Shown here: piece after piece, positions 1 to 19,409 of the stretch
How positions within the stretch are numbered: the stretch's first letter is position 1
Layout: each line of letters begins with the position of its first letter
From: an uncultured virus (IMG/VR IMGVR_UViG_3300020148_000031)
Lineage: Duplodnaviria; Heunggongvirae; Uroviricota; Caudoviricetes
Direction: 5' to 3' (one strand)
Virus record (IMG/VR): IMGVR_UViG_3300020148_000031
DNA: 64,000 nucleotides
Program-made: the position numbers and the translations under genes
The notes under the pieces: model-generated
Databases searched by the model: none
The model's input: only the letters and a program-made list of their open reading frames with translations
What the model was told of the DNA's origin: nothing

Positions 1-585
1 ATGTCTAAATTTCATATCAATCAAGAAACAGGAGAAGTAGACACTTGTAGAGCTTCTAAAGGGCGCTGTCCATTTGGTGGAAGTGAGGACCATTACTCTT
101 CAAAGAAAGAAGCAAGAACTGCTTATGAAAACAAAAAGCCTTCTTTCTCCAACACTGATTCTAAAGAAAAAGTGTATAAGGATTATAGGAGAATCCTAAA
201 GGCTCAACCAAGAAGCGTAAGTTCGCGAGCAGGTGACAGAAAACAAAAAGCGCGAGAAATTATTACTCAAAAATATGGGATATCTCACAAAGAATTAAAA
301 GGTATTGTGAGTTCATATGATGAGCAAAATAATATTCGTCACGAAGATAAACAATATATGCGCGACTTTAAAATCTTTACACTTTTAAAAGAAAAGACGG
401 ATGAGTACGAGAAAACTGGGAACCAAGAATGCCCAAAATGTAAACGTTCAGGGAAAGACGACCGCGGGCAAGATCTTATTATAAGACCAAGAATAGTTGA
501 AATGGGAAGAAAAGAAGATGAAATCCCTAAAATTGAAATCTTGTGTTATGAATGCCACTTGAGAAGAATCGGTAAGTTAAAATAA
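1..585 (+). CDS. Protein with N-terminal H-C-C-H module and C-terminal Zn-finger/HNH-like region
   Basis: N-terminus MSKFHINQETGEVDTCRASKGRCPFGGSEDHY is shared with five other ORFs; C-terminal CPKC...CYECH. Confidence 0.65.
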   Translation: MSKFHINQETGEVDTCRASKGRCPFGGSEDHYSSKKEARTAYENKKPSFSNTDSKEKVYKDYRRILKAQPRSVSSRAGDRKQKAREIITQKYGISHKELKGIVSSYDEQNNIRHEDKQYMRDFKIFTLLKEKTDEYEKTGNQECPKCKRSGKDDRGQDLIIRPRIVEMGRKEDEIPKIEILCYECHLRRIGKLK

Positions 586-836
586 TTTCTTTAAATATCT
601 TGTCTCTTATAAAGAAAGCTATATAATGTCAACTCTTGTTGACTTTAAACAGAATATACGAAAGTTCTTGTACCAGGATCAAACACCTGAACATAACCCT
701 CTGACAAAAGAACAATCTCATTAGTAATCTTAGAGCCACTAGAATCAACAAGAGGGTACCGCGAACCTATCTCCATATTTTAGTATCAATATTTCTATGG
801 TACCGAAATATATTTGATGTTATTTATGGTTGATGA

Positions 837-1658
837 TTAAATTGAAGGGATTAAACTATCGCACTCGTCTTCAGAATGATATCTCTTAAATTTTATCTGA
901 ATACGCTGATCTGGAGTAAAAACCTCTTGCTCTTTCTTAAAATCATGCAAAAATGCAGTATCAACAATCTCTGGACCCTCAACACGACCATCAGGGTAAG
1001 AGAAATAAGCAACCCAAACATGCTCGCTACCAGCAATAAAATCTTCACTCTTACCAGAAGAATCATTTGAAATCTTCATCGAAAAACGCTTCTGCTCAAC
1101 TGGTTCATACTTATTAGTAATCTTAGTTTGTTTTCCATAATTATCATAAATCATATCACCGATTTCAAGATCCTTAAGCTTTACTATACCGTAAGGAGTT
1201 GGGATGAGGGTCTCTTCAGACAGCGCTTTTACGCCGGATGGGGATAATAGTTCTCCTGCCTCGTCCACCATCACGAGCAACGCCTGACCCTTCTCTGGAA
1301 GATCCAAGAAGTTGTTTAAACCTAGTTGTTCTAGTTCTGAATAACGTTTCATCATGGTTTGTTGCGCGAAACGCAAGACTGTAAGAGCATCCTGAAGATT
1401 TGTAGCAATTCCTAAAACAACGTTAGAATAAGCACGATACTGTGACAACTCTACTCGTTTCAAGTCAATACCGAGGAATCTCCAAGAATCTGGACGAAGA
1501 ATACAAGAAATAATTATATTCCTCTGTACTACGGAATTGTGGGTCAAAATACTTGTATCATCATTTTGACTTTTGACAGAGAATAACCTGTCAGGGCTAT
1601 CAACGCTAATACACCTTGATAACTCTGGCTCTACTTCTCGTATAGATTTTATTTTCAT
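837..1658 (-). CDS. Fragment 2 of fractured FtsK/SpoIIIE-like ATPase: IntC (aa1-41) + extein (aa42-144, Walker B) + second IntN (aa145-273)
   Basis: Begins with intein blocks F/G (SRCISVDSPDRLF...ILTHN/S). Extein has FtsK motifs GIDLKRVEL, MMKRY, LLVMVDEAGELL. It then continues as ALSEETLIPTPYG...LEIGDMIYDNYGK...AGSEHVW (intein blocks A/B) with no terminal HN. Confidence 0.9.
   Translation of the reverse strand: MKIKSIREVEPELSRCISVDSPDRLFSVKSQNDDTSILTHNSVVQRNIIISCILRPDSWRFLGIDLKRVELSQYRAYSNVVLGIATNLQDALTVLRFAQQTMMKRYSELEQLGLNNFLDLPEKGQALLVMVDEAGELLSPSGVKALSEETLIPTPYGIVKLKDLEIGDMIYDNYGKQTKITNKYEPVEQKRFSMKISNDSSGKSEDFIAGSEHVWVAYFSYPDGRVEGPEIVDTAFLHDFKKEQEVFTPDQRIQIKFKRYHSEDECDSLIPSI
840..1226 (-). 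mobile_element. Split intein N-terminal fragment (IntN-2), Ala1/class 3 type
   Basis: ALSEETLIPTPYG block A with Ala1; block B EHVW with Trp; ORF ends without blocks F/G. Confidence 0.85.
1536..1658 (-). mobile_element. Split intein C-terminal fragment (IntC-1), class 3 type
   Basis: Block F Cys (RCISV), block G THN followed by Ser+1; in-frame stop four codons upstream of the ATG. Confidence 0.9.
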
Positions 1659-1725
1659 TGTCAGCCTTTACTTAGTATAGTAAGTATAGGATCAATATCA
1701 GATTTATCTTGTAGGACTCTTTCTA
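1655..1725. repeat. 71-bp direct repeat, copy 1 (other copy 3073-3143)
   Basis: tcattgtcagcctttacttagtatagtaagtataggatcaatatcagatttatcttgYaggactctttcta; one mismatch (1712 t / 3130 c). Confidence 0.95.
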
Positions 1726-3076
1726 TTGCGGATTGCACTAGTTCGTTCTTTTCATTCCAGTCATCCTCCCAAACAAAGAGCAAAGAGATTCCTTTTTTAT
1801 TAGCTAAATCAAGTTTTGATTTATGATAATCATAACTTTTGAGCCCTCTATTCTTAAAAATAATTTGATCACTGTGCCAATACATTCCGTTGTATTCAAT
1901 TCCAACTTTTAATTCTGGAATGTATATATCTATTTCCTTACCTTCTAGAGGTAAAGAAGTATTCCTATCGATCTTAAGATTTAAGTCTTTTTTTAAAATA
2001 AAATTACTTATTTGAGTCTCCCCTATAGAGGATCTACAAAGTTTACACATATTTCCTTTCATTCTATTACTAATTGAAGCCATCCATTGATGCCCATTAG
2101 AGCAGATCCAATATACTTTTTCAGATGACATTTTAGAGTAACTTTCAGGATTTTGTATATTACGATTATCCCATTCCTCTAAAATGTATTTATATTCAGA
2201 GTTTTCCTCTATGAATGTTTTTAAATCATTAAAGCCGGATTTTAACTTTTTCCCCGAGCATATAGAACATTTATCACCTCTTATGATTCTTCGTCCTATT
2301 TCAGCTTCCCATTCATGATTATTAGAGCAAATCCAATAAACTTTTTCATCACTTCCAAAAGTGTAATTTTCAGGAGCTAAATTATTTTTCGGACTCCATT
2401 CTTTGATTAATTCTTTGCTCATTCTACTTTTAGCGTCATTTACTCCAATTAGGATTACCTTTCCTTTACATACTCCACATGAATTGCTTTTTCGTAAAAA
2501 GACTGTTGATTTATAAGAATGGTTTCCTCTCTTACATTTCCACCAATATTTTTCCCGTGTTGAAAATGATTCTTCTGGAGTTATAATATTTTTATCGTAA
2601 TCCCACGTTTCAACGAGATTTGGATATCTATTTTTAATAGAAACTTTTTTATTCTGGATCTCTTTTCCCCCTGTAAAACATTTTCTACACCCAGTTTTAG
2701 CGATTGTCCTAGATCTTACTGTAGTTTTCCACTCATAATTACATTTACTACAAGTCCAATTTACTATAAGATTACTTACATAAAGAATCTCATTTATATT
2801 GATAGAGTTAGAAATAGAATATTCTTTTGCTAATTCTGGATTTTTGGTATGAAGATCATTAAATCCTTTTAACACTTTACGGTTATTACAAAAAGGGCAT
2901 ATTCTAGAAGTAGAAATAATATTTCTTATCTGCGCAGACCATTCACCATTACAATTTTGACATTTAAATAAGAAATATTTCCTATTAGACAATGAACAAG
3001 AGTAAATATCTTTTTCAGTTTTATCATAAATATAATCTTTGACAAAAGGATACAATTCTAGTAATGTTTCTCTCAT
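1661..3076 (-). CDS. Zinc-ribbon repeat protein with C-terminal Vsr/DUF559-like endonuclease domain (putative free-standing homing endonuclease)
   Basis: Repeated GFNDL...EW...KVYWICSxxHxW...CxxC units; C-terminal EIDIYIPELKVGIEYNGMYWH...WEDDW. Confidence 0.8.
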   Translation of the reverse strand: MRETLLELYPFVKDYIYDKTEKDIYSCSLSNRKYFLFKCQNCNGEWSAQIRNIISTSRICPFCNNRKVLKGFNDLHTKNPELAKEYSISNSININEILYVSNLIVNWTCSKCNYEWKTTVRSRTIAKTGCRKCFTGGKEIQNKKVSIKNRYPNLVETWDYDKNIITPEESFSTREKYWWKCKRGNHSYKSTVFLRKSNSCGVCKGKVILIGVNDAKSRMSKELIKEWSPKNNLAPENYTFGSDEKVYWICSNNHEWEAEIGRRIIRGDKCSICSGKKLKSGFNDLKTFIEENSEYKYILEEWDNRNIQNPESYSKMSSEKVYWICSNGHQWMASISNRMKGNMCKLCRSSIGETQISNFILKKDLNLKIDRNTSLPLEGKEIDIYIPELKVGIEYNGMYWHSDQIIFKNRGLKSYDYHKSKLDLANKKGISLLFVWEDDWNEKNELVQSAIERVLQDKSDIDPILTILSKG

Positions 3077-3143
3077 TGTCAGCCTTTACTTAGTATAGTA
3101 AGTATAGGATCAATATCAGATTTATCTTGCAGGACTCTTTCTA
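3073..3143. repeat. 71-bp direct repeat, copy 2
   Basis: 70/71 identical to 1655-1725. Confidence 0.95.
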
Positions 3144-3174
3144 GAGTAGGATACTTTTTAAAGATTTCTTCCAT
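3079..3174 (-). pseudogene. 31-aa remnant ORF (MEEIFKKYPTLERVLQDKSDIDPILTILSKG), probable internally deleted endonuclease paralogue
   Basis: Read manually; last 20 aa identical to the C-terminus of 1661-3076; ATG overlaps the stop of the upstream gene (TAATG). Confidence 0.5.
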
Positions 3175-3428
3175 TATCTACTTTTAGGGTGATCCCAGTC
3201 ACAATCTATGCTTGCTGTAATACCGTTGTTATTGTAGATTGCACAGTTTATTGTTATACCGTCTTTTGTTGTCACTTCTTGAATGCTTATCTCATTGTTT
3301 GTAGTGCTGGCTTTTTGTTTTTCTTGTGTATTCTTGTTAGTTTCAATTACGATAGGGAGAATAATCATTGCTAGAATTGCCATGACGATAAAAATAATGA
3401 ATAATTCTTGAGTGCGGAGCTTGTCCAT
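3174..3428 (-). CDS. Small membrane-anchored, prepilin-like protein
   Basis: TQELFIIFIVMAILAMIILP resembles a type IV pilin N-terminal helix; C-terminal Cys pair. Confidence 0.45.
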   Translation of the reverse strand: MDKLRTQELFIIFIVMAILAMIILPIVIETNKNTQEKQKASTTNNEISIQEVTTKDGITINCAIYNNNGITASIDCDWDHPKSR

Positions 3429-3445
3429 TATTATGTCCTATCTTT

Positions 3446-4483
3446 TTATAAACTGAATAAAGTAAAGTCTTCTTCTGGTTCTTGCTCGGGAAGTTCAAGA
3501 ACCCATTTGAGTTGACCGGCTGTGGAGACTTTTGTGTAACCTATTTCTTCAAGAATCATGTCGTTATGGTAGAACTCGTTACCTTTTTCTTTAAGTTCTT
3601 TCCTACTTCCAAGTTTTCCACCGTAGAATGTTTGACCGACTCCGGCACCAAAACTACCGGCCATTCTGTTCGGGTTAATGTAGGGAGTCTCAAGAACTTT
3701 TTGTAAATCTGGGTGGCGTTCTTTGCCTTCTTTGTCGATCACTTTTACGTCTTTGGGTGAGTCAGTGTTAAGTACCCACATGTATGCGTCTTCTTTGTTC
3801 GTGTCAAGTAGAGTGAAACCTTGGGCTTCTTTGTATGAACCAAGTGAGTGGCTATAGTTCACATAACTGATGATGTGGGTTGGCTTCTTGTCTTTTACGA
3901 ATTCTTTTTGAAGTCGTGAGGCTGCTCCGTAAATGTGGACTCCCGGTTTGATGGCAAGTCGTAATCCTTCCCAGATGTTTGGAGACTCTAGTTGTGTTTT
4001 CATGCTCCAGCGGTATTTACAGTATTGTTGAACTGCTAGTATTTCGCCAGTGTCTTTAATTTTTAGGGCGTAACTTACTTTTTCGGCACCGGAAGCGTTC
4101 TTTTGAATGTGGTATTTCTTTGAGAATTCGTTACCTATTTCGTTAGTTACTTTAGAAACTGCGAGTCTTTTGGCAGCAAATTTTCTTGTGTCAAGACCTA
4201 ATTTTGAGGTAAAGTGTTGAAAAATGTGGGAGAGTCTTTCGTTTTCCCATGGGTAAATATAATAGATCTCTTTACCTTGATCGTAAGCATTTTGTTTGAT
4301 GGTTCGTAATTCTTGAGTGGTTTTATCGTGTTGACTTACGATATGTATGTCAAGAGTTGTTTTGGGAGAAGTGAGGGTTGTGACATAACCATTTGTTTCA
4401 GAAATAACAGTGTCAGGTAGAGCTTTAATCCAGTTTTCTAGCTCTTCTTGAGTGGTCTGTAGATCTTTTTCAAATTGTGTCAT
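3446..4483 (-). CDS. GNAT-fold protein of the Mom/Hef-associated type
   Basis: FSKKYHIQ, GAASRL, IISYVNYSHSLG-YKxQGF, STAGQLKW motifs. Confidence 0.5.
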   Translation of the reverse strand: MTQFEKDLQTTQEELENWIKALPDTVISETNGYVTTLTSPKTTLDIHIVSQHDKTTQELRTIKQNAYDQGKEIYYIYPWENERLSHIFQHFTSKLGLDTRKFAAKRLAVSKVTNEIGNEFSKKYHIQKNASGAEKVSYALKIKDTGEILAVQQYCKYRWSMKTQLESPNIWEGLRLAIKPGVHIYGAASRLQKEFVKDKKPTHIISYVNYSHSLGSYKEAQGFTLLDTNKEDAYMWVLNTDSPKDVKVIDKEGKERHPDLQKVLETPYINPNRMAGSFGAGVGQTFYGGKLGSRKELKEKGNEFYHNDMILEEIGYTKVSTAGQLKWVLELPEQEPEEDFTLFSL

Positions 4484-4521
4484 GTTAACTTTCTTTCAAT
4501 GCTTTTATTTATTATATCTAT

Positions 4522-4866
4522 TTAGTTGAGGAAAGCTCCCATTTCGTAAGGGTATTCATCAAGAGTTTTGCCTCCTCCCCAAGAATCTTTCTCGTCACGT
4601 TCGTATTGCTCTGGAATGACTCCATTGTCGCTCATCTTCTTCCAATAAGAGAACGAGTAAAGACCATCGTATTCTTTGACTGTAGCGTCAAAATATAGAG
4701 GATTGTATTTAATGAGGTCCCATTTTTCTTGAGCTTCTTCGACTGTTTCAAGTAACCTACCAAAGTTTATTTGTAGGAAATATGAACCATCCTCGATTTT
4801 CCATAATGCTGAGTCTGGGGAACCACCGTGACCAAAGTAGAAGTCTTTGTATATTGTTTTTGACAT
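4522..4866 (-). CDS. Hypothetical protein
   Basis: 114-aa ORF, co-oriented with neighbours, purine-rich RBS. Confidence 0.6.
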   Translation of the reverse strand: MSKTIYKDFYFGHGGSPDSALWKIEDGSYFLQINFGRLLETVEEAQEKWDLIKYNPLYFDATVKEYDGLYSFSYWKKMSDNGVIPEQYERDEKDSWGGGKTLDEYPYEMGAFLN

Positions 4867-4868
4867 GT

Positions 4869-5129
4869 TTAATTTCCTTCAAGGGGAGTAAGAGTGTAGT
4901 CCTTGTTAAAGGAATTGGTGTCTTTGTTCCCCATAGAGACAAACACATAATATTTAGAGAATTTTATGATCATGTTATCTCCTAGGAGAGTTAATTCGTC
5001 AGAGTCAGAATTATAGAATTTTGATCGACATGTGAATTCGACCTCGCTATTACCAATTTTTAAATTCCACATTTGGTTAAGTTTGACTAAAGAGTGAACG
5101 AACGAATTTTTCGGGTTCTTATATTGCAT
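4869..5129 (-). CDS. Hypothetical protein
   Basis: 86-aa ORF with AGGAGG RBS. Confidence 0.6.
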   Translation of the reverse strand: MQYKNPKNSFVHSLVKLNQMWNLKIGNSEVEFTCRSKFYNSDSDELTLLGDNMIIKFSKYYVFVSMGNKDTNSFNKDYTLTPLEGN

Positions 5130-5229
5130 AAAAGCCTCCTATTTTCATATTTATTGTAACATGTTTTTTAGAAAAGTACACCCATTCGATATTTATAATA
5201 TTCTCTTTTTAAAAGTAAGGTGCTTTCAC

Positions 5230-6309
5230 ATGTCTCAAGATTTTCTTAAAGCTGGTGTTGATAGAAGCAAGATTTTTGTCCCGCATTTACGTGTGGATAG
5301 GCAGAAGGATTATAATGTAAGAGAATACGAGACGATCCCAGTTCTTTTTAAAAACGGCGGCGAACGTAACCTTTATAAGAATTTTAATATGACTATTTTT
5401 ATTGATGAACTTTGTAATGCTGATTGCAAGTTCTGCATTTCTTTACTTCGTTATGAGCACAAGAATGAGATTTACGAGAAGCAAAAGATTAAGAATCATG
5501 AAGAGTATTATCGAAGGTTGCGAAAAGTTTTAGATATTGTTGCTCCCTTGCAACCAAGCATTTCGATTACTGGTGGAGAGCCAACTATTTCCCCTCGCAT
5601 TATTGAGATTGCTAAGATTCTTGACGAATATGATATCCGTAAGAGAGTTGTCACGAGTAATTCGACCGGTCTTTTCAGAAAATTTAACGGAGAATTTGTT
5701 ATTGATGCTTTAATCGAGAATAATTTTGATCATATTAATATTTCGCGCTCTCACTATGATGATGCGTTAAATAGAGAAGTGATGCAATATAAAGCAAAGA
5801 ATTATACGAGTTTGAATCATATTGAGAAGGTCCTTACGGTTCTTAATGATTCTCCTATTAGTCACCGTCTGAGTTGCGTGTTGTTACAAGAAGGCGTCAA
5901 AAACCTTGATGATATAAAGAAATATGTTGATGTTCTTTCATCTGTTGGTGGCAATAATTTTATTTTCCGCGAAATGATGGATTTTGATAAGAATTCCGTA
6001 AATAAACCAATGATGGAATATATGGATGCTAACAAAGTCCGCTTGAATGATGTGTGGAAAGAATTCGATAATGATAGCGAAATGGAAGCTGTCATGAATA
6101 TTCTTGGATATTATTATTATGTTGAGATTTACAAATACAAGAATTTTACTGTAACAAGCGAGTCGGCTAATCTTAATCAGCAATATGTTGAGAAGGACAC
6201 TAACCCTGACATGGTTTATGAGATGATTTTTCACGAGAACGGGAACCTTAACGGGTCTTGGATTGAAAGTGAAGACATACTTGATAAATACGATGATTTT
6301 AAGGACTGA
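5230..6309 (+). CDS. Radical SAM protein
   Basis: CNADCKFC (CxxxCxxC), ITGGEPT, HINISRSHY; start placed at MSQDF after AAGGTG. Confidence 0.9.
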   Translation: MSQDFLKAGVDRSKIFVPHLRVDRQKDYNVREYETIPVLFKNGGERNLYKNFNMTIFIDELCNADCKFCISLLRYEHKNEIYEKQKIKNHEEYYRRLRKVLDIVAPLQPSISITGGEPTISPRIIEIAKILDEYDIRKRVVTSNSTGLFRKFNGEFVIDALIENNFDHINISRSHYDDALNREVMQYKAKNYTSLNHIEKVLTVLNDSPISHRLSCVLLQEGVKNLDDIKKYVDVLSSVGGNNFIFREMMDFDKNSVNKPMMEYMDANKVRLNDVWKEFDNDSEMEAVMNILGYYYYVEIYKYKNFTVTSESANLNQQYVEKDTNPDMVYEMIFHENGNLNGSWIESEDILDKYDDFKD

Positions 6310-6312
6310 AAA

Positions 6313-6987
6313 GTGAAAAAAGGTAAACGACTTTATATTTCATTAACAAATAATTGTAATACGACTTGCCCTTTCTGCAGTATGTATTCTGCAGAGGGGA
6401 AAAAGACTTATTTAACCTTTGATAAGTATAAAGAGATCATTGATACGTGTCAAGAAGATTATGAACTTCAAATAGAAGGTGGTGAACCTTTTGTTCACCC
6501 TCAATTTTGGTTATTTCTTGAGTATGGTTTGAGTACTGGGCGTTGTAAGAAGGTTCTTATTCTTACTAATGGAATACTTCTTAATGAACGTTTACAAAAG
6601 TTATTGATTATTAGAAGTGAATACCCTGAGGTTGAGTTCTCTATTAAGATTAGTGTGAATTATTGGTTGTTGAAAGATCCAGAGCATTTAAACAGAGTAA
6701 AGGCAGCTTTGCATTCAACAAAATATGTCCCTGACTTCTCCATACTTTTGAATGTGCGAGAAAGAAACAATGATGATTATACTCCTCTTCTTGAAAAAGA
6801 AGGTTTGTTAGAGTACTCTAACGTTTATAAATTGCAATCATATGGAAAGTTATCTAAAGCGGATAAGGTTTATGAGAAACCTGTAATTGTTCAGAATATT
6901 AACCAATGGGAATTATTCGGTAGCACTGGTGAAAGTTTTGGTCAAGATCTTATTGCAAGAAGTGAAGCCGAGAAATTATTACCATGA
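6313..6987 (+). CDS. Radical SAM protein
   Basis: CNTTCPFC, EGGEPFVHP, ILTNG. Confidence 0.88.
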   Translation: MKKGKRLYISLTNNCNTTCPFCSMYSAEGKKTYLTFDKYKEIIDTCQEDYELQIEGGEPFVHPQFWLFLEYGLSTGRCKKVLILTNGILLNERLQKLLIIRSEYPEVEFSIKISVNYWLLKDPEHLNRVKAALHSTKYVPDFSILLNVRERNNDDYTPLLEKEGLLEYSNVYKLQSYGKLSKADKVYEKPVIVQNINQWELFGSTGESFGQDLIARSEAEKLLP

Positions 6988-7727
6988 GAACTATTAAAGT
7001 AAATTCTCTTTATTTCCCTAATAGAGACACTATTGACAGCTCTAAAGTTTTGAAGAAAACTTTTGACTCTGGTTATATTTTGACCCCAATCACTCTCCAC
7101 GTCATCATAAAAGATTATGTACTAGGAACGCTTATAAGCAGCTTAGAGCAGATTTATCGTGATTATGGTGTAATCCCGAACATCTCTTTGTCAACTGTGG
7201 AGACTGCAGATTCTTTGTTGTATTTTCTTAAAGATGTGCAAGAGCTTGATGTAAATTATCGTACTGTTTCTCTCGATGGGAGGATACTTTTAGAAAATGA
7301 AGCCATTATTCCTCTTATGCATAAGGTTGGTTTGATTCATAATATTAATATAGAAACTAGCGGTCTGTCATCGCAGGAGAAGTATATTTTGGGGTGGAAT
7401 TTTCTTCATCATGGCGGCGATGTGAGAGAGTCAATAGATTTCACGGAAGAAGTAACCCTTGATGATCTTGTTGTGAGGTGGAAGGAGAATCGAACGTATG
7501 GTTTTGATTCTTTAATACTTCGTAAACCTTCAAATAATGTATTACGAAAATCCGAAGAGTTATTAAAACCTAATATTATTGATCAGTACGAGGGTTATCA
7601 TTATTCAGTAAAGGTATATTCGTACAAGGGGTCACTTGTGAAAGTGTATCAGGATTCTTCTTTCTCTCATGAGAATACTATTACTGCGTTTGTACTTAAA
7701 AATGGATGTGTTATTCCAAAAAGTTAG
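6984..7727 (+). CDS. Hypothetical protein, probable degenerate radical SAM paralogue
   Basis: ATGA overlap with the previous gene; EGYHYSVKVYSYKG resembles LGYYYYVEIYKYKN of 5230-6309; no Cys triad. Confidence 0.55.
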   Translation: MRTIKVNSLYFPNRDTIDSSKVLKKTFDSGYILTPITLHVIIKDYVLGTLISSLEQIYRDYGVIPNISLSTVETADSLLYFLKDVQELDVNYRTVSLDGRILLENEAIIPLMHKVGLIHNINIETSGLSSQEKYILGWNFLHHGGDVRESIDFTEEVTLDDLVVRWKENRTYGFDSLILRKPSNNVLRKSEELLKPNIIDQYEGYHYSVKVYSYKGSLVKVYQDSSFSHENTITAFVLKNGCVIPKS

Positions 7728-7831
7728 AAAGTATAATAGAGGAACAAAATAGATCAACATGTGTTGATTTTATTGTTTTATACTGATATTTACTGATCTA
7801 CGTGTTTATTCTTATGCACTTTGGAGTTCTT

Positions 7832-8677
7832 ATGACAAAATACCACATTAACCCTAAAGGGGATGTTACTCTTTGTCGAGCAAAAGTGAAATGCCGCTTT
7901 GGCTCCGAAGATGTTCATTTCTCGTCAAAGTCTGAAGCACTCACATATTTCGAAGATAACTCTCGAACCTTCACAAAAATTAAAAAAGGTCTACATGTCT
8001 CTGACTCGTTAAAGTCACTCGAACAACCACATTCTAATGTTCTTATACTTTCTGATGTTGACGGAACTCTTGTCAAAGGATCCCTCGTTCTTAATCATGC
8101 GTGTGCTCTTCATGATAAAGGAGTCATTGATTTGGGTGACTTACCAGAAAAGTGGAAAGCAGACATGAAGAATGAAGTAATTATTCAAGAGCTTGCTGAG
8201 ACATATCGTGATAAAATTATAGGCCTTCATCTTAAAGATTTAGAGACTAAAGAATTTATTGATGAAGTAGTATCAGATTCAAATAACTTTTATAGTTCTA
8301 TTGATGAGATTAGAACTATGAAGCGCGGCGGAGCTGAAGTTATCCTTATTAGTGGATCTCCTCAATATCTTGTGGGTGAACTTGCTAAGAAGTTTGGATT
8401 TAAAGGTATTGGTAGTGATTATCAAACTGACCGAACAGGGCATTTGAATGGTAAAGTTGTTGGAATGTTCTTTGCCGAGGCAAAAGAAAAGGTTGTTGCT
8501 GAGAGCATTGATCTTAATGAACATAGAGTACAAATTCATGCGTATGGAGACACTAGTAGCGATAAACCATTATTCGATAAAGCTCATCATAAAGTCATTG
8601 TTGATCCTACAAGCGAAACTTTGCGCAAGTTAAATATTCGAAAGAATAATAAAGACTACCGAATTCTTAAAGATTAA
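7832..8677 (+). CDS. HAD-superfamily (SerB/IB-like) phosphatase with N-terminal H-C-C-H module
   Basis: SDVDGTLV motif I, LISGS motif II, AYGDTSSD motif IV; MTKYHINPKG...CRAKVKCRF...H leader. Confidence 0.85.
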   Translation: MTKYHINPKGDVTLCRAKVKCRFGSEDVHFSSKSEALTYFEDNSRTFTKIKKGLHVSDSLKSLEQPHSNVLILSDVDGTLVKGSLVLNHACALHDKGVIDLGDLPEKWKADMKNEVIIQELAETYRDKIIGLHLKDLETKEFIDEVVSDSNNFYSSIDEIRTMKRGGAEVILISGSPQYLVGELAKKFGFKGIGSDYQTDRTGHLNGKVVGMFFAEAKEKVVAESIDLNEHRVQIHAYGDTSSDKPLFDKAHHKVIVDPTSETLRKLNIRKNNKDYRILKD

Positions 8678-8856
8678 AATTCTGCATCAGATACAAAAAT
8701 AAATCGTCCAAACCCTCTTTGGAGATATTCATCAAGTATTCCCTGATTCTTTTCTAGGAATAAAATTTCGTCTGCATGACTATCAGAAAATACTTTGTTT
8801 TTTCTTATTTATAAAGAAATGATATTTAAAACTATTACAATAAGAAAGTCTCGCTT

Positions 8857-9231
8857 ATGAAAAATCTTGGATTTATTATAGAATCGCTTGTCTCTTTAGA
8901 CAATGGTGTCTTTAAGGCTGAAGAATTTGATTCTTTGTGTAGCCAGAGCATCACAGAAAACTCTACTCTTGTTGAATTAAATGGTTCAACCACTATACTT
9001 TTTGACGTAATGAGGTTTGACTTCGAGGGAAGAGAAACACAAGTAATCTTCTTAAAGAAAATGATCGGTGAAGAAGTAAAATATTATATTTCTCTTCAAC
9101 AGAAACATTATGAAGCTTTTAGCGTATATGTCAAAGACGAGAATAATATAAGGGTCCATGTTTTTGAAGCGTCAGATGAGTCATGGGACAATGCAAGCTC
9201 GCTTGCCCTTTTCATTGGACTAATACTTTAA
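8857..9231 (+). CDS. Hypothetical protein
   Basis: 124-aa ORF with upstream GATATT motif. Confidence 0.6.
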   Translation: MKNLGFIIESLVSLDNGVFKAEEFDSLCSQSITENSTLVELNGSTTILFDVMRFDFEGRETQVIFLKKMIGEEVKYYISLQQKHYEAFSVYVKDENNIRVHVFEASDESWDNASSLALFIGLIL

Positions 9232-9365
9232 GAAAACTTTTCGTAAACTTCTTTCGCTTTATTATCAAAATGTGCTAATTCGTTAGAGATTGGACAGGTT
9301 CTTACAGAAGCTGTCCACACGTCAACATTACCAGTTTTAGGATTAATATGATACTTTTTAGCCAT
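9228..9365 (-). CDS. 45-aa stand-alone (possibly decayed) H-C-C-H module
   Basis: Not in the ORF track; MAKKYHINPKTGNVDVWTASVRTCPISNELAHFDNKAKEVYEKFS with GAGG RBS; first Cys replaced by Trp. Confidence 0.65.
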   Translation of the reverse strand: MAKKYHINPKTGNVDVWTASVRTCPISNELAHFDNKAKEVYEKFS

Positions 9366-9384
9366 TAGAATACCTCTGTTTCTT

Positions 9385-10131
9385 TTACAAGAAATTCAAT
9401 GGTTTGTTGAGACTTTTTATTTTGGTTAGCCAGTTATAACGGCGAATAGACTCGCTTTTATAAATCATGTTCATAAACTTCTCATTACTTTTAACACTCG
9501 TAACTAGATCATCAACAGAATTAAATTTCGTTTCCTTTAAACCTAAGATATTAAATTTTTGAATATAATAATGATCTGGCTCGTCCTTTTTAACGACTAT
9601 TGAAAGGTTAGGGTGTAGTTGAGTACCTCCATTATATTCGCTAGAAATCTCAATCATTATTCCATGTTGGAATTGATCTTTGTGATCTTTGAAGAATTTT
9701 CCGAGATTTTCCTTAAGAGTTTCTTCATTCTTAATAAAACTCATATAAGGAATAAAATCAGCATATAATCCATCAGTAGTCATTCCGTACTTATATAAAT
9801 ACTTATGAATGAATGGAATAGATTTGTCATTTAAATCAGGATTGAAAGCCTCATAACCTCTGATAAACGCTCCGAATTGCTCAGGCTTCATTTCGCTAGG
9901 GTCAGTTTCAATGAGAGAAGTAAAATCTTCGAGCTCTTTTTCGCGCTCTTTTTCGAGATTTGGTCTTTTTTGAAGAACGGCCAATAATTCTTTTTTCATT
10001 TCATTTTCAAAGCTGCGTAACGCTTCATCAAACGTATCGAAATGGTTTTCCAATCCAAGAGGGCAAACTCTTAACCTTGCTCTACACACGGAAACAAGCC
10101 CATTAGAGTTATAATGAAATTTTTGAGACAT
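9385..10131 (-). CDS. Hypothetical protein with N-terminal H-C-C-H module
   Basis: MSQKFHYNSNGLVSVCRARLRVCPLGLENHF leader. Confidence 0.7.
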   Translation of the reverse strand: MSQKFHYNSNGLVSVCRARLRVCPLGLENHFDTFDEALRSFENEMKKELLAVLQKRPNLEKEREKELEDFTSLIETDPSEMKPEQFGAFIRGYEAFNPDLNDKSIPFIHKYLYKYGMTTDGLYADFIPYMSFIKNEETLKENLGKFFKDHKDQFQHGIMIEISSEYNGGTQLHPNLSIVVKKDEPDHYYIQKFNILGLKETKFNSVDDLVTSVKSNEKFMNMIYKSESIRRYNWLTKIKSLNKPLNFL

Positions 10132-10171
10132 AAGAACCCTTCTTTAATGAAATATATAAAGATTTTTCTAA

Positions 10172-11395: not shown

Positions 11396-11413
11396 TAAAC
11401 TCTCTTTATAAGG

Positions 11414-15526: not shown

Positions 15527-15594
15527 TTTATTCTCAATTCTTTCAAAGTTTTACCATGTTGCATATAATAACACAAGATTAAGAATTTAACAAA

Positions 15595-16221
15595 TTATTT
15601 TTGAACTAATGTGGGGATATTAATATTTTCTCCTAAAAGAAGCAATTGTTCAGTGTTAACAACTTTACCGATGATAACTTTCCACTTTTTTCTATATTGA
15701 CGCTTACCTGTGAGTGATAGCATTTGTTGACAAAATTGTCTAGCATCATAAGTTCTAAAACCCTTTTGGATTTCAATTTCTTCATATGTGTCAAGATCGC
15801 TATAAGAGAGGTTAGTTTCGGCAATATGCCCTAAAGATTCTGCTATACGGACAGTAAGGTTTTGTATTTTGTTATCTTTTTCTCCACCAACGAGATATAC
15901 CATGTCAATAAGAGAAGTTTCAACTTCATCTTCACTGTTAGCTACATTAAGTAAAAGTTGTATTGACTCTTTAGGTAGATTCTTCAATGTTTTCTTCGCT
16001 TCTTTCACTCGAAGATAATGAAGCTCTTTATCAATTTCAGTTTCAATATACCACAAGTGATTACCCGATGCTTTAATAATTGATCCATTGTCAAGAGTAA
16101 TTTCATATGTTTTCTCTGGAATGTGTGGGTCATAAGCATCAGTTACGGTAACAGGTTTTCCATTTTTCCCTATGATTCTATCACCAGGTTTAATTTCTGA
16201 TAATTTTTTATATTTTGTCAT
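15595..16221 (-). CDS. Free-standing central Hint (intein) fragment, putative IntM of a three-piece split intein
   Basis: KKLSEIKPGDRIIGKNGKPVTV...TYEITLDNGSIIKASGNHLW (post-block-A strands plus block B); lacks block A and blocks F/G; in-frame stop three codons upstream of the ATG. Confidence 0.82.
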   Translation of the reverse strand: MTKYKKLSEIKPGDRIIGKNGKPVTVTDAYDPHIPEKTYEITLDNGSIIKASGNHLWYIETEIDKELHYLRVKEAKKTLKNLPKESIQLLLNVANSEDEVETSLIDMVYLVGGEKDNKIQNLTVRIAESLGHIAETNLSYSDLDTYEEIEIQKGFRTYDARQFCQQMLSLTGKRQYRKKWKVIIGKVVNTEQLLLLGENINIPTLVQK

Positions 16222-17063
16222 ATTTTCTTACCTTCGTCTAGTGACTCTAACATATATTTATATATCTCGTCTTCTGCTTTTAAAGCAGCCTCTTTAGAAA
16301 TTAACCAATCAGATTTTGTAAATTTAAGAGGGTGAATAATTTGAAGTCTTGAATCGTTCACATTAAAAGTCATTCCTATCACTTTTTGCCTAACAGAGAA
16401 ATAACTATCATCTTTCTCCGGATAAAGATTCTTTAATAATTGGGAATTTTCTAGTTCTAAAAAGGTCGCCCATGTTAAATTCTTTAAAACACTTTCATCA
16501 AGATCTTTTGCAAAAGGCATAATAAGGAATAAATACATTCTCTCACGAGAACTATTAGAAAGAAGATCATTGATCATGTCAATATTTTCAGGTTTGTTTA
16601 ATTCATCAGTAATAAGACTTAGGTCTAAGAAGATAAGAGTCACTTTTCGTCCGGGTGGCTCCAAAAAACCGGAGCCCTTATTTGCATTTCTTATGTGTTC
16701 TCGAAATGCTATCAGATCTTTTAGACATTGTGTAAGACCCTCTTGATAATTTTTGTAGGAATAGAAATTCTTATAAGTTTTCGAAAGTATTGAGCAAATG
16801 TCTTCAGAAGATTCATTGAAATCAAAGAATGCTATTTCTGCACTATTACTAAATTTGCTTGTTTGATCAGCAATATTTTTAATGAATGTTATTTTTTCTA
16901 GCTCGCTCTCGCCATAAAAAAGAGCAGCATTAGAATGAGTGATAGGAGACCAATAAAGGAATTTACGGAAAGTTCTGTAAAGTTTAAAATTTACATCTAC
17001 TTTAGACACTCTCAAACCATTCCTTAGGCGAGGGTCTATCAGTAATCTAGGGTAATATTCCAT
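16218..17063 (-). CDS. Possible degenerate FtsK/P-loop-fold protein
   Basis: HSNAALFYGESELEK (decayed Walker A), AFFDF, TLIFLD, RERMYLFL in FtsK-like order; ATGA overlap with the Hint-fragment gene. Confidence 0.4.
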   Translation of the reverse strand: MEYYPRLLIDPRLRNGLRVSKVDVNFKLYRTFRKFLYWSPITHSNAALFYGESELEKITFIKNIADQTSKFSNSAEIAFFDFNESSEDICSILSKTYKNFYSYKNYQEGLTQCLKDLIAFREHIRNANKGSGFLEPPGRKVTLIFLDLSLITDELNKPENIDMINDLLSNSSRERMYLFLIMPFAKDLDESVLKNLTWATFLELENSQLLKNLYPEKDDSYFSVRQKVIGMTFNVNDSRLQIIHPLKFTKSDWLISKEAALKAEDEIYKYMLESLDEGKKI

Positions 17064-18383: not shown

Positions 18384-19406
18384 TTATTCTTCGTCAGCCA
18401 TTTCAACGAGAGTATCAACTGGGAGAGCCTTTCCACCACCAGTACCACCACCAATAAAGACCTGTGGAGAAGTAGTAATTTTTTGGTGCATCTTTAATCC
18501 TCGCTCTTTTGATAATTTTTCTTGCTCTCCAGATAAATCAAAACCAAGAACATTTTCGACTTGACCGGTTTTTGGATTAGTGATTTCTACACCGTTTTCA
18601 ACACCAAGTCCAATTGGGAAAAATGACCAAGCAATATCATCTGAAAGAACATAACTTTCATCCCAAAGTGCTATCTTTGGGAGAGGAGGTACCGCATAGA
18701 TAGTGACAATACCTTTTTCATAGTCCCATCCGTATATTTTCTTATCTGGGTCAATCAAAGGAACCCAAGTTGTTTCAACTCCAAAAACTTGATTATATTG
18801 TTTTAAGAAGCCTTCTTGGCCTTCAGCACTGAATGTTGTAGGAACATCGATTTCTACAATTTCGGGGACAACATAATCTTTCCATTTTTGAATACGAATA
18901 ACTGCTCCTGGATTCTGTTCATATTCTATAGAGGCGCCAAGCTTTGAACGTACAATTTCAAACATTTTAGACATTACTGATTGTCGCGTTTTAAGTACTG
19001 GATCAGCTGATTTTATAGCAAAAACAATACCACCAAAAAATAATGCATATCCAAGAGGGATTAAAAAGTTGGGGAATAAATTAAAGAAAACAGAACCTAC
19101 GGAAAGAACCAAACCTGATAAATAAAGAATAATAAAAAGTTGACTTCTTGTTACTCCGCTTGGATTCTCATTGTCTTTACCTGTTGAAAACATTCTTTTA
19201 TCTTTGAAAGTGAAGCTAATTCTTTCTTTCCATTGTGGCCACACTGGTCGTGGGATATTCTTAAGCGCTGCTTTGTTATTCCCTAAAGAAGCTGCTTTTC
19301 TATCAACAATGAGTTTCTTTTGAGCAAAGGCTATAAGACGAAAAATTATAGGTAATACAATGATGTAACCTATTGCAACAATTATTACGAGAGTGTTTCT
19401 TTCCAT
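18384..19406 (-). CDS. Fragment 1 of fractured membrane-anchored FtsK/SpoIIIE-like ATPase, ending in Walker A plus a 14-aa IntN
   Basis: Three TM segments, FPIGLG, then SPQVFIGGGTGGGK/ALPVDTLVEMADEE-stop. Confidence 0.85.
   Translation of the reverse strand: MERNTLVIIVAIGYIIVLPIIFRLIAFAQKKLIVDRKAASLGNNKAALKNIPRPVWPQWKERISFTFKDKRMFSTGKDNENPSGVTRSQLFIILYLSGLVLSVGSVFFNLFPNFLIPLGYALFFGGIVFAIKSADPVLKTRQSVMSKMFEIVRSKLGASIEYEQNPGAVIRIQKWKDYVVPEIVEIDVPTTFSAEGQEGFLKQYNQVFGVETTWVPLIDPDKKIYGWDYEKGIVTIYAVPPLPKIALWDESYVLSDDIAWSFFPIGLGVENGVEITNPKTGQVENVLGFDLSGEQEKLSKERGLKMHQKITTSPQVFIGGGTGGGKALPVDTLVEMADEE
18387..18428 (-). mobile_element. Very short split intein N-fragment (IntN-1, block A only)
   Basis: ALPVDTLV directly after the P-loop Lys; matches Ala1 block A of class 3 inteins and IntN-2 (ALSEETLI). 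Confidence 0.8.
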
Positions 19407-19409
19407 TAA

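What the first reader, a model, noticed from the sequence alone, without database searches (positions are those of the whole stretch)
837..1658. Same ATPase is split again: an IntC-extein-IntN cassette implies at least four gene products for one enzyme
Seen: the 103-aa extein carrying Walker B (VDEAGELL) lies between IntC-1 and a second, 129-aa Ala1 IntN (block B EHVW) that has no C-terminal HN. The post-Walker-B part of the FtsK fold is not in the window. Inference: a further gene (IntC-2 plus the last extein) lies outside the window. The mature motor would need two orthogonal trans-splicing reactions, acting like an AND gate over several transcription units, and IntN-2 must avoid pairing with IntC-1 on its own chain (which would cyclise the extein).
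Basis: partly seen in the sequence, partly recalled or inferred. Interest (0 to 1): 0.85.

Follow-up and report, generated by a model that had tools for sequence, protein, structure and literature searches.

The report
Four-gene DNA pump, two split inteins
This gene is the middle piece of a DNA-pumping enzyme that a large mobile element encodes in four separate genes, apparently stitched together by two self-splicing protein elements, one of which is itself broken into three pieces, a layout I found reported only for engineered proteins.

Summary
ORF 837-1658 (-), 273 aa, consists of a 41-aa C-intein, a 103-aa FtsK/TcpA-like extein (from the Walker A serine through Walker B), and a 129-aa Ala1 N-intein with no C-terminal splice motif.

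The layout is a conserved family, not a relic. In 114 of 114 short relatives the splice residues are invariant. That includes the block F Cys, the His-Asn-Ser junction, and the block B His and Trp.

The predicted missing gene exists. P0182 (282 aa) is a C-intein followed by the ...GRAAGVHLVIATQRPD half. It is recorded on a 436,884-bp contig, the same length as the contig carrying the window's own protein. It is not in the window. Relatives carry both genes 6.5-8 kb apart on one strand.

Both inteins carry the class 3 signature: Ala1, the Trp/Cys/Thr triplet, and Ser/Thr at +1.

The first intein is in three pieces. These are a 14-aa tail on the N-extein gene (18384-19406), a free 208-aa middle piece (15595-16221), and the 41-aa C-piece. 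This holds in 6 of 6 elements examined.

Splicing itself is inferred, not shown.

The parts
1536..1658 (-). IntC-1: the 41-aa C-terminal piece of intein 1. Cys16 is at block F position 4; the piece ends Thr39-His40-Asn41.
   Evidence: C16, H40 and N41 are invariant in 114 of 114 relatives; position 39 is T in 66 and S in 48.
1227..1535 (-). Middle extein, 103 aa. It starts with Ser42, the Ser of Walker A GKS, and runs through Walker B (VDEAGELL) to Lys144.
   Evidence: Pfam FtsK_SpoIIIE positions 53-140 of 221, E 5.7e-7. Family profile against FtsK 2ius, E 3.2e-9. S42 and K144 are invariant in 114 of 114.
840..1226 (-). IntN-2: the 129-aa N-terminal piece of intein 2. Key residues are Ala145, Leu146, Thr150, block B His213 and Trp215. 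It has a basic tail (...IKFKR) and no His-Asn end.
   Evidence: A145 in 111 of 114, L146 in 113 of 114, and T150, H213 and W215 in 114 of 114. Profile match to the gp41-1 intein 6riz, E 7.1e-7. The same segment is contiguous with an IntC-2 in P0090 and in the L029 ORF.
1661..3076 (-). Free-standing homing-endonuclease-like gene (471 aa) directly upstream of gene C. Its stop lies 2 bases before gene C's ATG.
   Evidence: Pfam DUF4379 E 7.1e-59. PHROG 'HNH endonuclease' phrog_559 E 4.7e-42 and 'homing endonuclease' phrog_3339 E 1.2e-30. Weak match to 3r3p 'mobile intron protein', E 0.21. Homologues sit upstream of gene C in L026 and L029.
15595..16221 (-). Gene B: a free 208-aa middle piece of intein 1. 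It begins near intein position 14-17, carries block B (...SGNHLWY), and has no extein.
   Evidence: tblastn with the N part of P0053 gave E 8e-24; in P0053 this piece is fused to IntC-1. Six-sequence profile against gp41-1 intein 6riz, E 2.9e-5, profile 5-60 to chain 17-70. hhalign to IntN-2 residues 158-217, probability 89.5%, E 2e-6. It is a separate ORF in 5 of 5 IMG/VR relatives.
18387..18428 (-). IntN-1a: a 14-aa N-terminal piece of intein 1 (ALPVDTLVEMADEE, then stop), fused to the N-extein.
   Evidence: Relatives end ...TGGGK plus 14-20 aa with the same [A/S]xxx[D/N]T pattern. The Thr at intein position 6 is invariant in 5 of 5 aligned sequences.
18429..19406 (-). N-extein, 326 aa. It has a hydrophobic N-terminus and ends in the Walker A loop ...GGGTGGGK.
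   Evidence: G320, T322, G323-G325 and K326 invariant. Homologues found in 5 of 5 IMG/VR relatives, E 4e-86 to 3e-112.
16218..17063 (-). 281-aa ORF of unknown function. Its stop overlaps gene B's start. It is a conserved neighbour of gene B and possibly not part of the splicing system.
   Evidence: Homologues lie directly upstream of gene B in L046, L048 and L049, E 4e-51 to 4e-58. No Pfam or PHROG match.

Best explanation
The window's replicon encodes one membrane-anchored FtsK/TcpA-like DNA translocase of about 666 aa as four polypeptides. Gene A (18384-19406) gives the N-extein ending ...GGGTGGGK plus a 14-aa intein piece. Gene B (15595-16221) gives a free 208-aa middle piece of the same intein. 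Gene C (837-1658, the finding) gives IntC-1, then 103 aa of extein, then IntN-2. Gene D lies outside the window and is represented by P0182. It gives IntC-2 plus the 237-aa C-extein.

In the first reaction, the A tail, B and IntC-1 would assemble into one HINT domain. Cys16 of gene C (block F position 4) would attack the Lys326-Ala327 bond. The acyl group would pass to Ser42, and Asn41 would cyclise. This rebuilds the P-loop GGGK-S.

In the second reaction, IntN-2 and IntC-2 would pair. Cys24 of gene D would attack the Lys144-Ala145 bond. The acyl group would pass to Thr46, and Asn45 would cyclise.

Both inteins carry the class 3 signature and are related to each other. The basic tail of IntN-2 faces a strongly acidic first strand in IntC-2, whereas the first strand of IntC-1 is net positive. 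This would disfavour pairing of IntN-2 with IntC-1 on the same chain.

What is shown: the anatomy, the conservation and the co-occurrence of the genes. What is inferred: assembly, chemistry, order of reactions and orthogonality. Homing-endonuclease genes next to the breaks suggest how the gene came to be fractured.
For: Anatomy.

Family: 332 relatives of gene C at E<=0.001, best 120 listed. Of those 120, 115 matched my Walker B pattern. Of the 115, 114 end in IntN-2 alone and 1 (P0090) has intein 2 contiguous.

Invariance: in 114 of 114 relatives, C16, H40, N41, S42, K144, T150, H213 and W215 are invariant. Mean pairwise identity in IntN-2 is only 0.47, against 0.71 in the extein.

Partner family: of the best 120 hits to the C-extein, 79 are IntC-2 plus C-extein, 40 are IntC-1 plus unsplit C-extein, and 1 is a fragment. 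All 79 have the block F Cys and Ser/Thr at +1. Fourteen contig lengths are shared between the two families, including 436,884, and all 14 pair with the split type.

Both genes on one record: L026 and G006, which has direct terminal repeats and a CheckV completeness of 100%.

The same intein 2 occurs in other states. It is a contiguous mini-intein in P0090. It is full length with a large insert in L029. It is absent in 5 of 5 of the first IMG/VR relatives.

Three-piece intein 1: found in 6 of 6 elements (window plus G001-G005). Piece B starts at intein position about 14-17 by two independent alignments. B is fused to IntC-1 in P0053.

Charges: IntN-2 tail mean +3.6. IntC-2 first strand mean -6.8 (n=79). 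IntC-1 first 15 aa mean +1.8.

Selection: a 95-99% alike relative in another run shows 10 substitutions in gene C and no indels. Eight are synonymous.

RNA splicing is unlikely: no Rfam intron in the window.

Precedent: synthetic three-piece inteins splice (abstract of bioRxiv 10.1101/2023.01.30.526203). One natural split class 3 intein splices (PMC7891396, abstract and passages).
Against: No splicing, protein or RNA evidence of any kind exists.

Gene D was not seen on the window's own DNA.

For intein 1, position 1 is Ser rather than Ala in 3 of 6 elements. Block G position 5 is Ser in 48 of 114. One relative's B piece has Met instead of Trp at block B position 12. So class 3 chemistry is less certain for intein 1.

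IntC-1 and IntC-2 share the core C[IL]xVDS...F...[ST]HN closely enough that MAFFT aligned them to each other. Cross-reaction therefore cannot be excluded.

Genes A, B and C lie 14-17 kb apart here and about 90-107 kb apart in relatives. Co-expression is therefore unproven.

In G006 intein 1 is organised differently, and my B query found nothing there.
Confidence: 0.75

Rival explanations
1. Only the second, two-piece intein splices. The three-piece arrangement of intein 1 is not functional, so the N-terminal membrane domain (gene A) is never covalently joined. It either associates non-covalently or is dispensable. Gene B is then a leftover.
For: No natural three-piece intein was found in print. 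Genes A/B and C are 14 kb apart here and about 90-107 kb apart in relatives. Intein 1's class 3 signature is less strict: Ser1 in 3 of 6, and Ser at block G position 5 in 48 of 114.
Against: The motor would lack its Walker A lysine, which lies at the end of gene A. IntC-1's C16, H40, N41 and S42 are invariant in 114 of 114. The A tail keeps the block A Thr in 5 of 5 aligned relatives. Piece B is kept as an intact ORF with block B in 6 of 6 elements, at 38-43% identity to the window's copy.
Confidence: 0.12
2. The intein pieces act only as non-covalent docking modules. The ATPase works as an assembled complex of separate chains without peptide ligation.
For: Split intein halves bind tightly before reacting, so docking alone could in principle reconstitute a fold. 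No ligated product has been observed.
Against: Residues needed only for chemistry, not for docking, are invariant: the block F Cys, the terminal Asn and the +1 Ser/Thr. This holds in 114 of 114 for intein 1 and 79 of 79 for intein 2. An intein parked inside the P-loop would block ATP binding unless excised.
Confidence: 0.06
3. Decaying relic: gene C is a remnant of a once intact, intein-bearing gene, and no functional enzyme is made.
For: Homing-endonuclease-like genes crowd the locus. One HEG-like gene in L026 is itself broken into two ORFs.
Against: The same 259-273-aa architecture recurs in 114 of 115 classified relatives with invariant catalytic residues. The partner gene family is equally common and co-occurs. 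Eight of 10 substitutions against a close relative are synonymous, with no indels.
Confidence: 0.03
4. Gene C's own two intein pieces pair with each other. This cyclises or cleaves the 103-aa extein, producing a by-product or regulator instead of the motor.
For: IntC-1 and IntC-2 share the block F/G core. IntC-extein-IntN is the layout used in engineered backbone cyclisation; that point is recalled, not checked here.
Against: The first strand of IntC-1 and the tail of IntN-2 are both net positive, while IntC-2 is strongly negative. IntC-1 belongs to an intein whose N part is supplied by A and B. A 103-aa fragment of a RecA-like fold has no evident function.
Confidence: 0.04

Closest known systems
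Fractured genes with split inteins and free-standing homing endonucleases (Dassa et al. 2009, PMC2677866; abstract and passages read)
   Same: A host enzyme gene is broken at an intein. The intein halves lie on separate ORFs, with a free-standing endonuclease gene at the break. Charge complementarity between the halves is noted there too.
   Different: Those 26 loci each show one split, with the two halves flanking the endonuclease. Here one gene has two split inteins, one of them in three pieces. The pieces are spread over 14 kb or more. FtsK-like ATPases are not among the host enzymes named in the passages I read.
AceL NrdHF intein, reported as the first naturally split class 3 intein (Hoffmann et al. 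2020, PMC7891396; abstract and passages read)
   Same: A naturally split intein that uses an internal block F Cys, with a non-nucleophilic first residue, in a fractured-gene setting.
   Different: AceL NrdHF has a variant of the Trp/Cys/Thr triplet, with Met at the Trp position. The inteins here keep the canonical triplet: W in 114 of 114 and C in 79 of 79 for intein 2. They sit in a different host protein, and two of them occur in tandem.
Synthetic three-piece split inteins (Weis et al. 2023, bioRxiv 10.1101/2023.01.30.526203, abstract read; Sun, Yang and Liu 2004, seen only as a reference-list entry and split-site nomenclature in PMC13014065)
   Same: One HINT domain is divided into a short N piece, a free middle piece and a C piece that together splice. 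gp41-1, one of the inteins split this way, is also the closest solved relative here by sequence.
   Different: Those are laboratory constructs. The 2023 abstract states that natural inteins had been found encoded by one gene or by two. Here the three pieces are natural and conserved in 6 of 6 elements examined.
Atypically split natural inteins with short N pieces: PolB16 (15 aa), VidaL (16 aa), AceL TerL (25 aa) (passages of PMC13014065)
   Same: The break lies close to the intein N-terminus, near the published S1 site. The 14-20-aa tail on gene A resembles this.
   Different: Those are two-piece inteins. At 14 aa the window's piece would be one residue shorter than the 'record-short' 15 aa cited there. 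The remainder is broken again at the canonical site.
Class 3 intein prototype MP-Be DnaB (Tori et al. 2010, PMC2807308; abstract and passages read)
   Same: A non-nucleophilic first residue, Trp at block B position 12, Cys at block F position 4, Thr at block G position 5, and Ser/Thr at +1.
   Different: The prototype is contiguous and sits in a helicase. The inteins here are split and sit in an FtsK/TcpA-like ATPase.
Engineered tandem protein trans-splicing with an IntC-insert-IntN cassette (PMC7210297; search listing and abstract only)
   Same: A middle segment flanked by the C half of one split intein and the N half of another is ligated between two partners by two orthogonal reactions.
   Different: That system is engineered with unrelated orthogonal inteins. 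Here the layout is natural and the two inteins are related to each other.
FtsK and the conjugative coupling translocase 6o1w ('DNA translocase coupling protein')
   Same: The relative P0090 matches 6o1w at E 5.3e-11 and FtsK 2ius at E 1.3e-8. Walker A, Walker B and the ...ATQRPD region are all present across genes A, C and D.
   Different: The reading frame is divided over three extein-bearing genes. The N-terminal 326 aa has no Pfam match.

Membership tests
Split intein (HINT splicing domain in separate polypeptides) | An N-terminal splice motif (block A) directly follows the extein. | tested here: met
   A145 in 111 of 114, L146 in 113 of 114, T150 in 114 of 114. The gene A tail has the form [A/S]xxx[D/N]T in 6 of 6.
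Split intein (HINT splicing domain in separate polypeptides) | Block B His, and blocks F/G ending His-Asn followed by a nucleophile. | tested here: met
   H213, H40, N41 and S42 are invariant in 114 of 114. IntC-2 ends HN followed by T (59) or S (20) in 79 of 79.
Split intein (HINT splicing domain in separate polypeptides) | Significant similarity to inteins of known structure. | tested here: met
   6riz gp41-1 intein: E 7.1e-7 for the gene C profile and E 2.9e-5 for the gene B profile. DnaB inteins 6rix/6riy: E 2e-4 to 5e-4. This is by sequence only; no structure was modelled.
Split intein (HINT splicing domain in separate polypeptides) | The complementary half is encoded elsewhere on the same replicon. 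| tested here: inconclusive
The feature is met directly in L026 and in G006.
Split intein (HINT splicing domain in separate polypeptides) | Trans-splicing activity. | not testable with these tools
A biochemical test is needed.
Class 3 inteins (Tori et al. 2010) | The first residue is not Cys, Ser or Thr. | tested here: inconclusive
   Intein 2: Ala in 111 of 114 and Ser in 3. Intein 1: Ala in 3 of 6 and Ser in 3 of 6. The 2010 paper lists three triplet-bearing inteins that begin with Ser or Cys as unresolved.
Class 3 inteins (Tori et al. 2010) | The Trp (B:12) / Cys (F:4) / Thr (G:5) triplet. | tested here: met
   Intein 2: W215 in 114 of 114, Cys in 79 of 79, Thr in 77 and Ser in 2 of 79. Intein 1: Trp in 5 of 6 B pieces and Met in 1, Cys16 in 114 of 114, Thr in 66 and Ser in 48. 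The definition was checked.
Class 3 inteins (Tori et al. 2010) | [quoted passage not shown] | tested here: met
   S42 in 114 of 114. T or S in 79 of 79.
Class 3 inteins (Tori et al. 2010) | A branched thioester forms on the block F Cys. | not testable with these tools
   Requires mutagenesis and trapping of the intermediate.
Fractured genes sensu Dassa et al. 2009 | The two intein halves are on neighbouring ORFs that flank one free-standing endonuclease gene. | tested here: not met
   An endonuclease-like gene abuts gene C. However, the other intein 1 pieces lie 14-17 kb upstream, and no IntC-2 gene lies in the 836 bases downstream. In L026, C and D are 6.5 kb apart with five intervening ORFs. 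The system works like a fractured gene but is more dispersed.
Fractured genes sensu Dassa et al. 2009 | The endonuclease is of the GIY-YIG or Vsr-like type. | tested here: inconclusive
   PHROG homing-endonuclease families at E 1e-30 to 5e-42. The match to 3r3p 'mobile intron protein' is weak at E 0.21. That 3r3p is a Vsr-like homing endonuclease is recalled, not checked.
FtsK/SpoIIIE/TcpA-like P-loop translocases | Walker A, Walker B and the C-terminal motor motifs, with a Pfam score above the cut-off. | tested here: met
   GGGTGGGK at the end of gene A plus S42. Walker B with PF01580 at 29.6 bits, cut-off 24. ...ATQRPD in P0182. P0090 against 6o1w E 5.3e-11 and against FtsK E 1.3e-8.
Three-piece split intein (so far only synthetic) | Three separate polypeptides that together supply blocks A, B, F and G of one intein. 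| tested here: met
   Block A is on the gene A tail, block B on gene B, and blocks F/G on gene C. They are separate ORFs in 6 of 6 elements. Piece B begins at intein position about 14-17. Activity was not tested.

The most novel reading that the evidence does not exclude
A natural three-piece class 3 split intein and a related two-piece class 3 split intein act in tandem to build one conjugation-type DNA translocase from four polypeptides. Charge-reversed docking strands keep the two related inteins orthogonal. The family would then offer ready-made natural parts: a 14-aa N-tag intein, a free 'key' piece that gates splicing, and an orthogonal pair. It would also show that inteins can be fragmented further than anyone has reported in nature.
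Probability: 0.55. Interest if true: 0.9.

Novelty: new variant of a known kind. Interest (0 to 1): 0.8.

Why it matters
Split inteins are core tools of protein engineering. Tandem trans-splicing, three-piece inteins and very short N-fragments have all had to be engineered.

This family suggests nature already uses all three in one enzyme, and does so with the rare class 3 chemistry. Only one natural split class 3 example is in print (PMC7891396).

It gives a directly testable system for three questions:
- How do related inteins avoid cross-reaction?
- Can a free intein piece gate assembly of an enzyme?
- How do homing endonucleases progressively shatter a gene while selection keeps the product?

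It also marks the P-loop of FtsK/TcpA-like translocases as an intein hot spot. Three different intein positions were seen within about 10 residues in relatives.

Tried and rejected
- No whole genome is held for the window, so the rest of the replicon could not be searched.
- Megablast of window 1-20000 against plasmids and phages found nothing.
- Metagenome loci could not be used as handles for whole-record searches.
- Complex prediction (A tail + gene C head + gene B) was not available. No binding test was made.
- I made no structure prediction or fold search. The mixed alignment meant to support one (A5) misaligned IntC-2 onto IntC-1, so I dropped it.
- No RNA holder was listed among the sequencing runs.
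- Rfam found no family and ARAGORN found no tRNA in the window.
- The promoter scan of 1-5200 was uninformative: 23 sites against 18.6 +/- 3.9 in shuffles, and no terminator-like site.
- The genome-contig scan gave one 3.2-kb MAG contig only, which does not identify a host.
- Terminase_6N was found in 0 of 5 IMG/VR relatives. Whether the element is a phage or a plasmid-like conjugative element stays open.
- Earlier-findings look-ups by place and by sequence were empty.
- I first took Walker-A hits in the IMG/VR relatives (L012, L021) for the N-extein. They are other ATPases.
- I considered a frameshift joining ORF 16218-17063 to gene B. I rejected it because an in-frame stop lies 9 bases upstream of gene B's ATG (read by eye). 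Also, the ORF 16218-17063 protein ends without a P-loop.
Full report
**What is at 837-1658.** The minus strand carries one ORF of 273 aa.

- Residues 1-41 (1536-1658) read ...SRCISVDSPDRLF...ILTHN and are followed by Ser42. This is a C-terminal intein piece with blocks F and G.
- Residues 42-144 (1227-1535) match Pfam FtsK_SpoIIIE positions 53-140 of 221 (E 5.7e-7, 29.6 bits, cut-off 24) and include Walker B (VDEAGELL).
- Residues 145-273 (840-1226) begin ALSEETLIPTP..., carry ...GSEHVW, and end without His-Asn.

A 56-sequence profile of the family matches FtsK (2ius, E 3.2e-9, profile positions 41-122). It also matches the solved gp41-1 intein (6riz, E 7.1e-7, profile positions 144-216 to chain 4-70). 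In the phage collection, 14 of 15 matching records matched only residues 137-249, mostly inside genes annotated as large terminase. That is what intein similarity looks like.

**Not a relic: a large conserved family.** The protein search returned 332 relatives at E<=0.001, of which the best 120 are listed. My Walker B pattern matched 115 of the 120. Of these 115, 114 end in the N-intein alone, and one (P0090) continues through a contiguous intein 2 into the rest of the ATPase.

I aligned the 114 listed proteins of 300 aa or fewer. The following residues are invariant in 114 of 114: Cys16, His40, Asn41, Ser42, Lys144, Thr150, Gly210, His213 and Trp215. Ala145 is present in 111 of 114. Mean pairwise identity is 0.56 in IntC-1, 0.71 in the extein and only 0.47 in IntN-2. 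Invariant chemistry on a drifting background indicates selection for splicing.

Contigs of a coded run, 95-99% alike, cover 806-1765 in four pieces. They show no insertion or deletion and have 10 listed substitutions inside gene C, of which 8 are synonymous.

**The missing fourth gene.** The window does not encode the post-Walker-B half. tblastn with the C part of P0090 and with P0182 gave only a weak cross-match of their C-intein to IntC-1 (E 0.065; E 0.22).

I searched with the C-extein of an unsplit relative (L001) and obtained 323 proteins, of which the best 120 are listed. These 120 comprise 79 of the form 'short C-intein + C-extein', 40 of the form 'IntC-1 + unsplit C-extein', and 1 fragment. 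All 79 have Cys at block F position 4, and their +1 residue is Thr in 59 and Ser in 20.

One of the 79 is P0182 (282 aa). It reads M...EEWFTLDDIEESD...LYCISVDSPEEQF...VPTHN|TDEGK...LGRAAGVHLVIATQRPD....

P0182 is listed on 2 contigs, the longest 436,884 bp. The window's own protein P0001 has exactly the same entry. In all, 14 contig lengths are shared between the two lists, and every one pairs a gene-C-type protein with a split-type partner.

Direct co-location is visible in two relatives:
- In L026, a 727-kb metagenome contig, gene C lies at 2682-3497 and gene D at 9965-10855 on the same strand.
- In IMG/VR record G006 (419,707 bp, direct terminal repeats, CheckV 100%), gene C lies at 100.9-101.7 kb and gene D at about 91.6-92.7 kb, both on the minus strand.

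In the window, only 836 bases lie downstream of gene C. Contigs of two runs continue 5.9 and 8.0 kb beyond position 1. A gene D just outside the window is therefore plausible, but I did not see it.

**Intein 2 in all its states.** The same insertion point (...SPSGVK | S/T-EE...) occurs in four states:
- Empty: in 5 of 5 of the first IMG/VR relatives and in 9 of 13 metagenome loci.
- Contiguous mini-intein: in P0090.
- Contiguous with an insert of roughly 230 aa at the canonical endonuclease site: in L029. That ORF gave no Pfam hit other than FtsK_SpoIIIE at E<=0.05.
- Split: in the window, L026, L027, L028 and G006.

In P0090 the end of the IntN-2 part (...IKIKRR) runs straight into the start of the IntC-2 part (...EEWFTIDNI). 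The natural break is therefore clean and sits at the canonical site.

**Intein 1 is in three pieces.** Ser42 is the Ser of the Walker A GKS motif, so the upstream extein must end in ...GxGK. A scan for G.GK found ORF 18384-19406 (-), 340 aa, ending ...SPQVFIGGGTGGGK|ALPVDTLVEMADEE-stop. That is a 326-aa N-extein followed by only 14 intein residues.

The rest of the N part is a separate ORF, 15595-16221 (-), 208 aa. It starts MTKYKKLSEIKPGD... and contains ...SGNHLWY. I found it because P0053, a relative in which this piece is fused to IntC-1 in one ORF, matches it at E 8e-24.

Several results agree on where the middle piece begins:
- A six-sequence profile of the middle piece matches gp41-1 intein chain positions 17-70 (E 2.9e-5) and DnaB intein chain positions 16-68 (E 4.5e-4).
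- hhalign places its residues 4-59 on IntN-2 residues 158-217, which are intein positions 14-73 (probability 89.5%, E 2e-6).

So the middle piece lacks just the stretch that the 14-aa tail supplies.

The arrangement is conserved. All five IMG/VR relatives have the N-extein gene ending ...TGGGK plus 14-20 residues of the form [A/S]xxx[D/N]T.... All five also have the middle piece as its own ORF a few kb downstream on the same strand. The Thr at intein position 6 is invariant in 5 of 5 aligned sequences.

The order A, B, C along one strand is colinear with the protein in all six elements. No Rfam intron lies in the window. An in-frame stop lies 9 bases upstream of gene B's ATG (read by eye). RNA splicing or simple read-through is therefore unlikely.

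**Class 3 signature.** The definition comes from passages of PMC2807308: no Cys/Ser/Thr at position 1; a Trp two residues after the block B His; Cys at block F position 4; Thr at block G position 5; and Ser or Thr at +1.

- Intein 2 meets all of these: Ala1 in 111 of 114, Trp in 114 of 114, Cys in 79 of 79, Thr in 77 of 79, and +1 Thr/Ser in 79 of 79.
- Intein 1 meets the triplet less strictly. Trp is present in 5 of 6 B pieces and Met in one. Cys16 is present in 114 of 114. Block G position 5 is Thr in 66 and Ser in 48. Position 1 is Ala in 3 and Ser in 3 of 6 elements.

**Orthogonality.** The two inteins are related. IntC-1 and IntC-2 share C[IL]xVDS...F...[ST]HN closely enough that MAFFT aligned one on the other.

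The docking strands differ in charge:
- The IntN-2 tail has a mean charge of +3.6 (range 0 to +7).
- The 22 residues before block F of IntC-2 have a mean of -6.8 (range -12 to -2, n=79).
- The first 15 residues of IntC-1 have a mean of +1.8.

Charge pairing of split-intein halves is a known recognition principle (Dassa 2009 figure legend; abstract of bioRxiv 10.1101/546465 in the listing). This is an argument for orthogonality, not a test of it.

**Surroundings.** A 471-aa gene (1661-3076) ends 2 bases before gene C's ATG. It matches DUF4379 (E 7.1e-59) and PHROG homing-endonuclease families (E 4.7e-42 and 1.2e-30). Homologues precede gene C in L026 and L029.

The window also carries type IV secretion-like genes: two TrbL/VirB6, a T2SSE ATPase, a TraG/VirD4-like protein, TadE and NikA-like. 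It has no PHROG structural hit among the 36 ORFs tested. Terminase_6N was found in 0 of 5 relatives, although IMG/VR lists them as viral. By PDB sequence search, the spliced enzyme is closest to a conjugative 'DNA translocase coupling protein' (6o1w, E 5.3e-11) and to FtsK (E 1.3e-8). A role in DNA transfer or partition of the element is my inference.

**Comparison with print.**
- Fractured genes with one split intein and a free-standing endonuclease are known (PMC2677866).
- One natural split class 3 intein is reported as the first of its kind; that study also found no split variants among 1701 class 3 inteins (PMC7891396, abstract).
- Natural atypical N pieces are 15-37 aa (PMC13014065, passages).
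- A 2023 preprint abstract states that natural inteins had been found encoded by one gene or by two (10.1101/2023.01.30.526203).
- My full-text searches found three-piece inteins and tandem IntC-insert-IntN cassettes only as engineered systems. The library lacks most subscription journals, so this is not proof of absence.
- Earlier unchecked notes of this scan report three-gene NrdA with two split inteins in several phages, and a contiguous class 3 intein in the Walker A loop of a Bifidobacterium FtsK/TcpA-like ATPase. The tandem layout as such is therefore probably not rare in metagenomes.
- The new elements here are the three-piece intein, the canonical class 3 split pair, their relatedness to each other, and the host protein.

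**Limits.** Nothing here shows splicing. I modelled no structure. No RNA data were available. Gene D was not seen on the window's own DNA.

Noticed in passing
window 11784-13871 (-), about 11414-11659 (-), 10172-11395 (-), 5161-6987 (+): The pyruvate formate-lyase-like gene (Pfam PFL-like, E 4.5e-192) stops before the glycyl-radical motif. An ORF of about 81 aa, roughly 120 bases downstream, carries ...RVSGYAV... A second DUF4379 endonuclease-like gene follows. Two radical SAM genes lie nearby. This is either a gene split without an intein or a spare-part radical domain.
   Followed up: partly
window 1-585 (+), 9385-10131 (-), 17154-18278 (-); L001 3256-4539 and 6843-7238; L029 3219-5276: A short N-terminal module (...[FY]H[IV]N..[ST]G....C.A....CP[FL]G....H[FY]....EA...) heads many otherwise unrelated ORFs of these elements. 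One in L029 looks to me like an NAD-dependent DNA ligase, judged by eye and not checked. Its function is unknown.
   Followed up: no
L041 (record G001, about 86.4-87.9 kb): In this relative the N-extein gene carries an additional contiguous mini-intein (Cys1 ... VHN|C) about 10 residues upstream of the P-loop junction. It also keeps the short tail of intein 1. There are thus two intein sites within the same loop.
   Followed up: partly
L114 and L120 (record G006): Here intein 1 is organised differently. Gene C begins with block B (...EEHLWTV), its extein starts TGGGKS, and the N-extein gene ends ...TTPM followed by about 50 intein-like and acidic residues. No separate middle piece was found.
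   Followed up: partly
record G002 (L042/L044, L050/L051): The N-extein gene and the middle intein piece lie inside the long inverted terminal repeats of this 437.6-kb linear record. They are therefore present twice, at about 71-74 kb and about 363-366 kb.
   Followed up: no
window 3446-4483 (-); L026 3638-5467 and 8054-9820; L001 8027-9922 and 11216-13210: Large zinc-ribbon-rich ORFs cluster around the break points. They match the C-terminal part of PHROG homing-endonuclease families, and weakly match Pfam DUF7487 and Mom. They may be a further family of selfish genes.
   Followed up: partly
window 27664-63326: A type IV secretion-like gene set lies here: two TrbL/VirB6, a VirB11-like ATPase, a TraG/VirD4-like protein, TadE and NikA-like. 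Alongside are a sigma factor, SSB, HU, SbcC and PIN-PhoH genes. Relatives are filed as viral in IMG/VR, yet 0 of 5 have Terminase_6N. The nature of the element is unresolved.
   Followed up: partly
window 16218-17063 (-): A 281-aa ORF overlaps gene B's start by 4 bases and is conserved directly upstream of gene B in three relatives. It has no family match. It may be a partner of the translocase or of the intein piece.
   Followed up: partly
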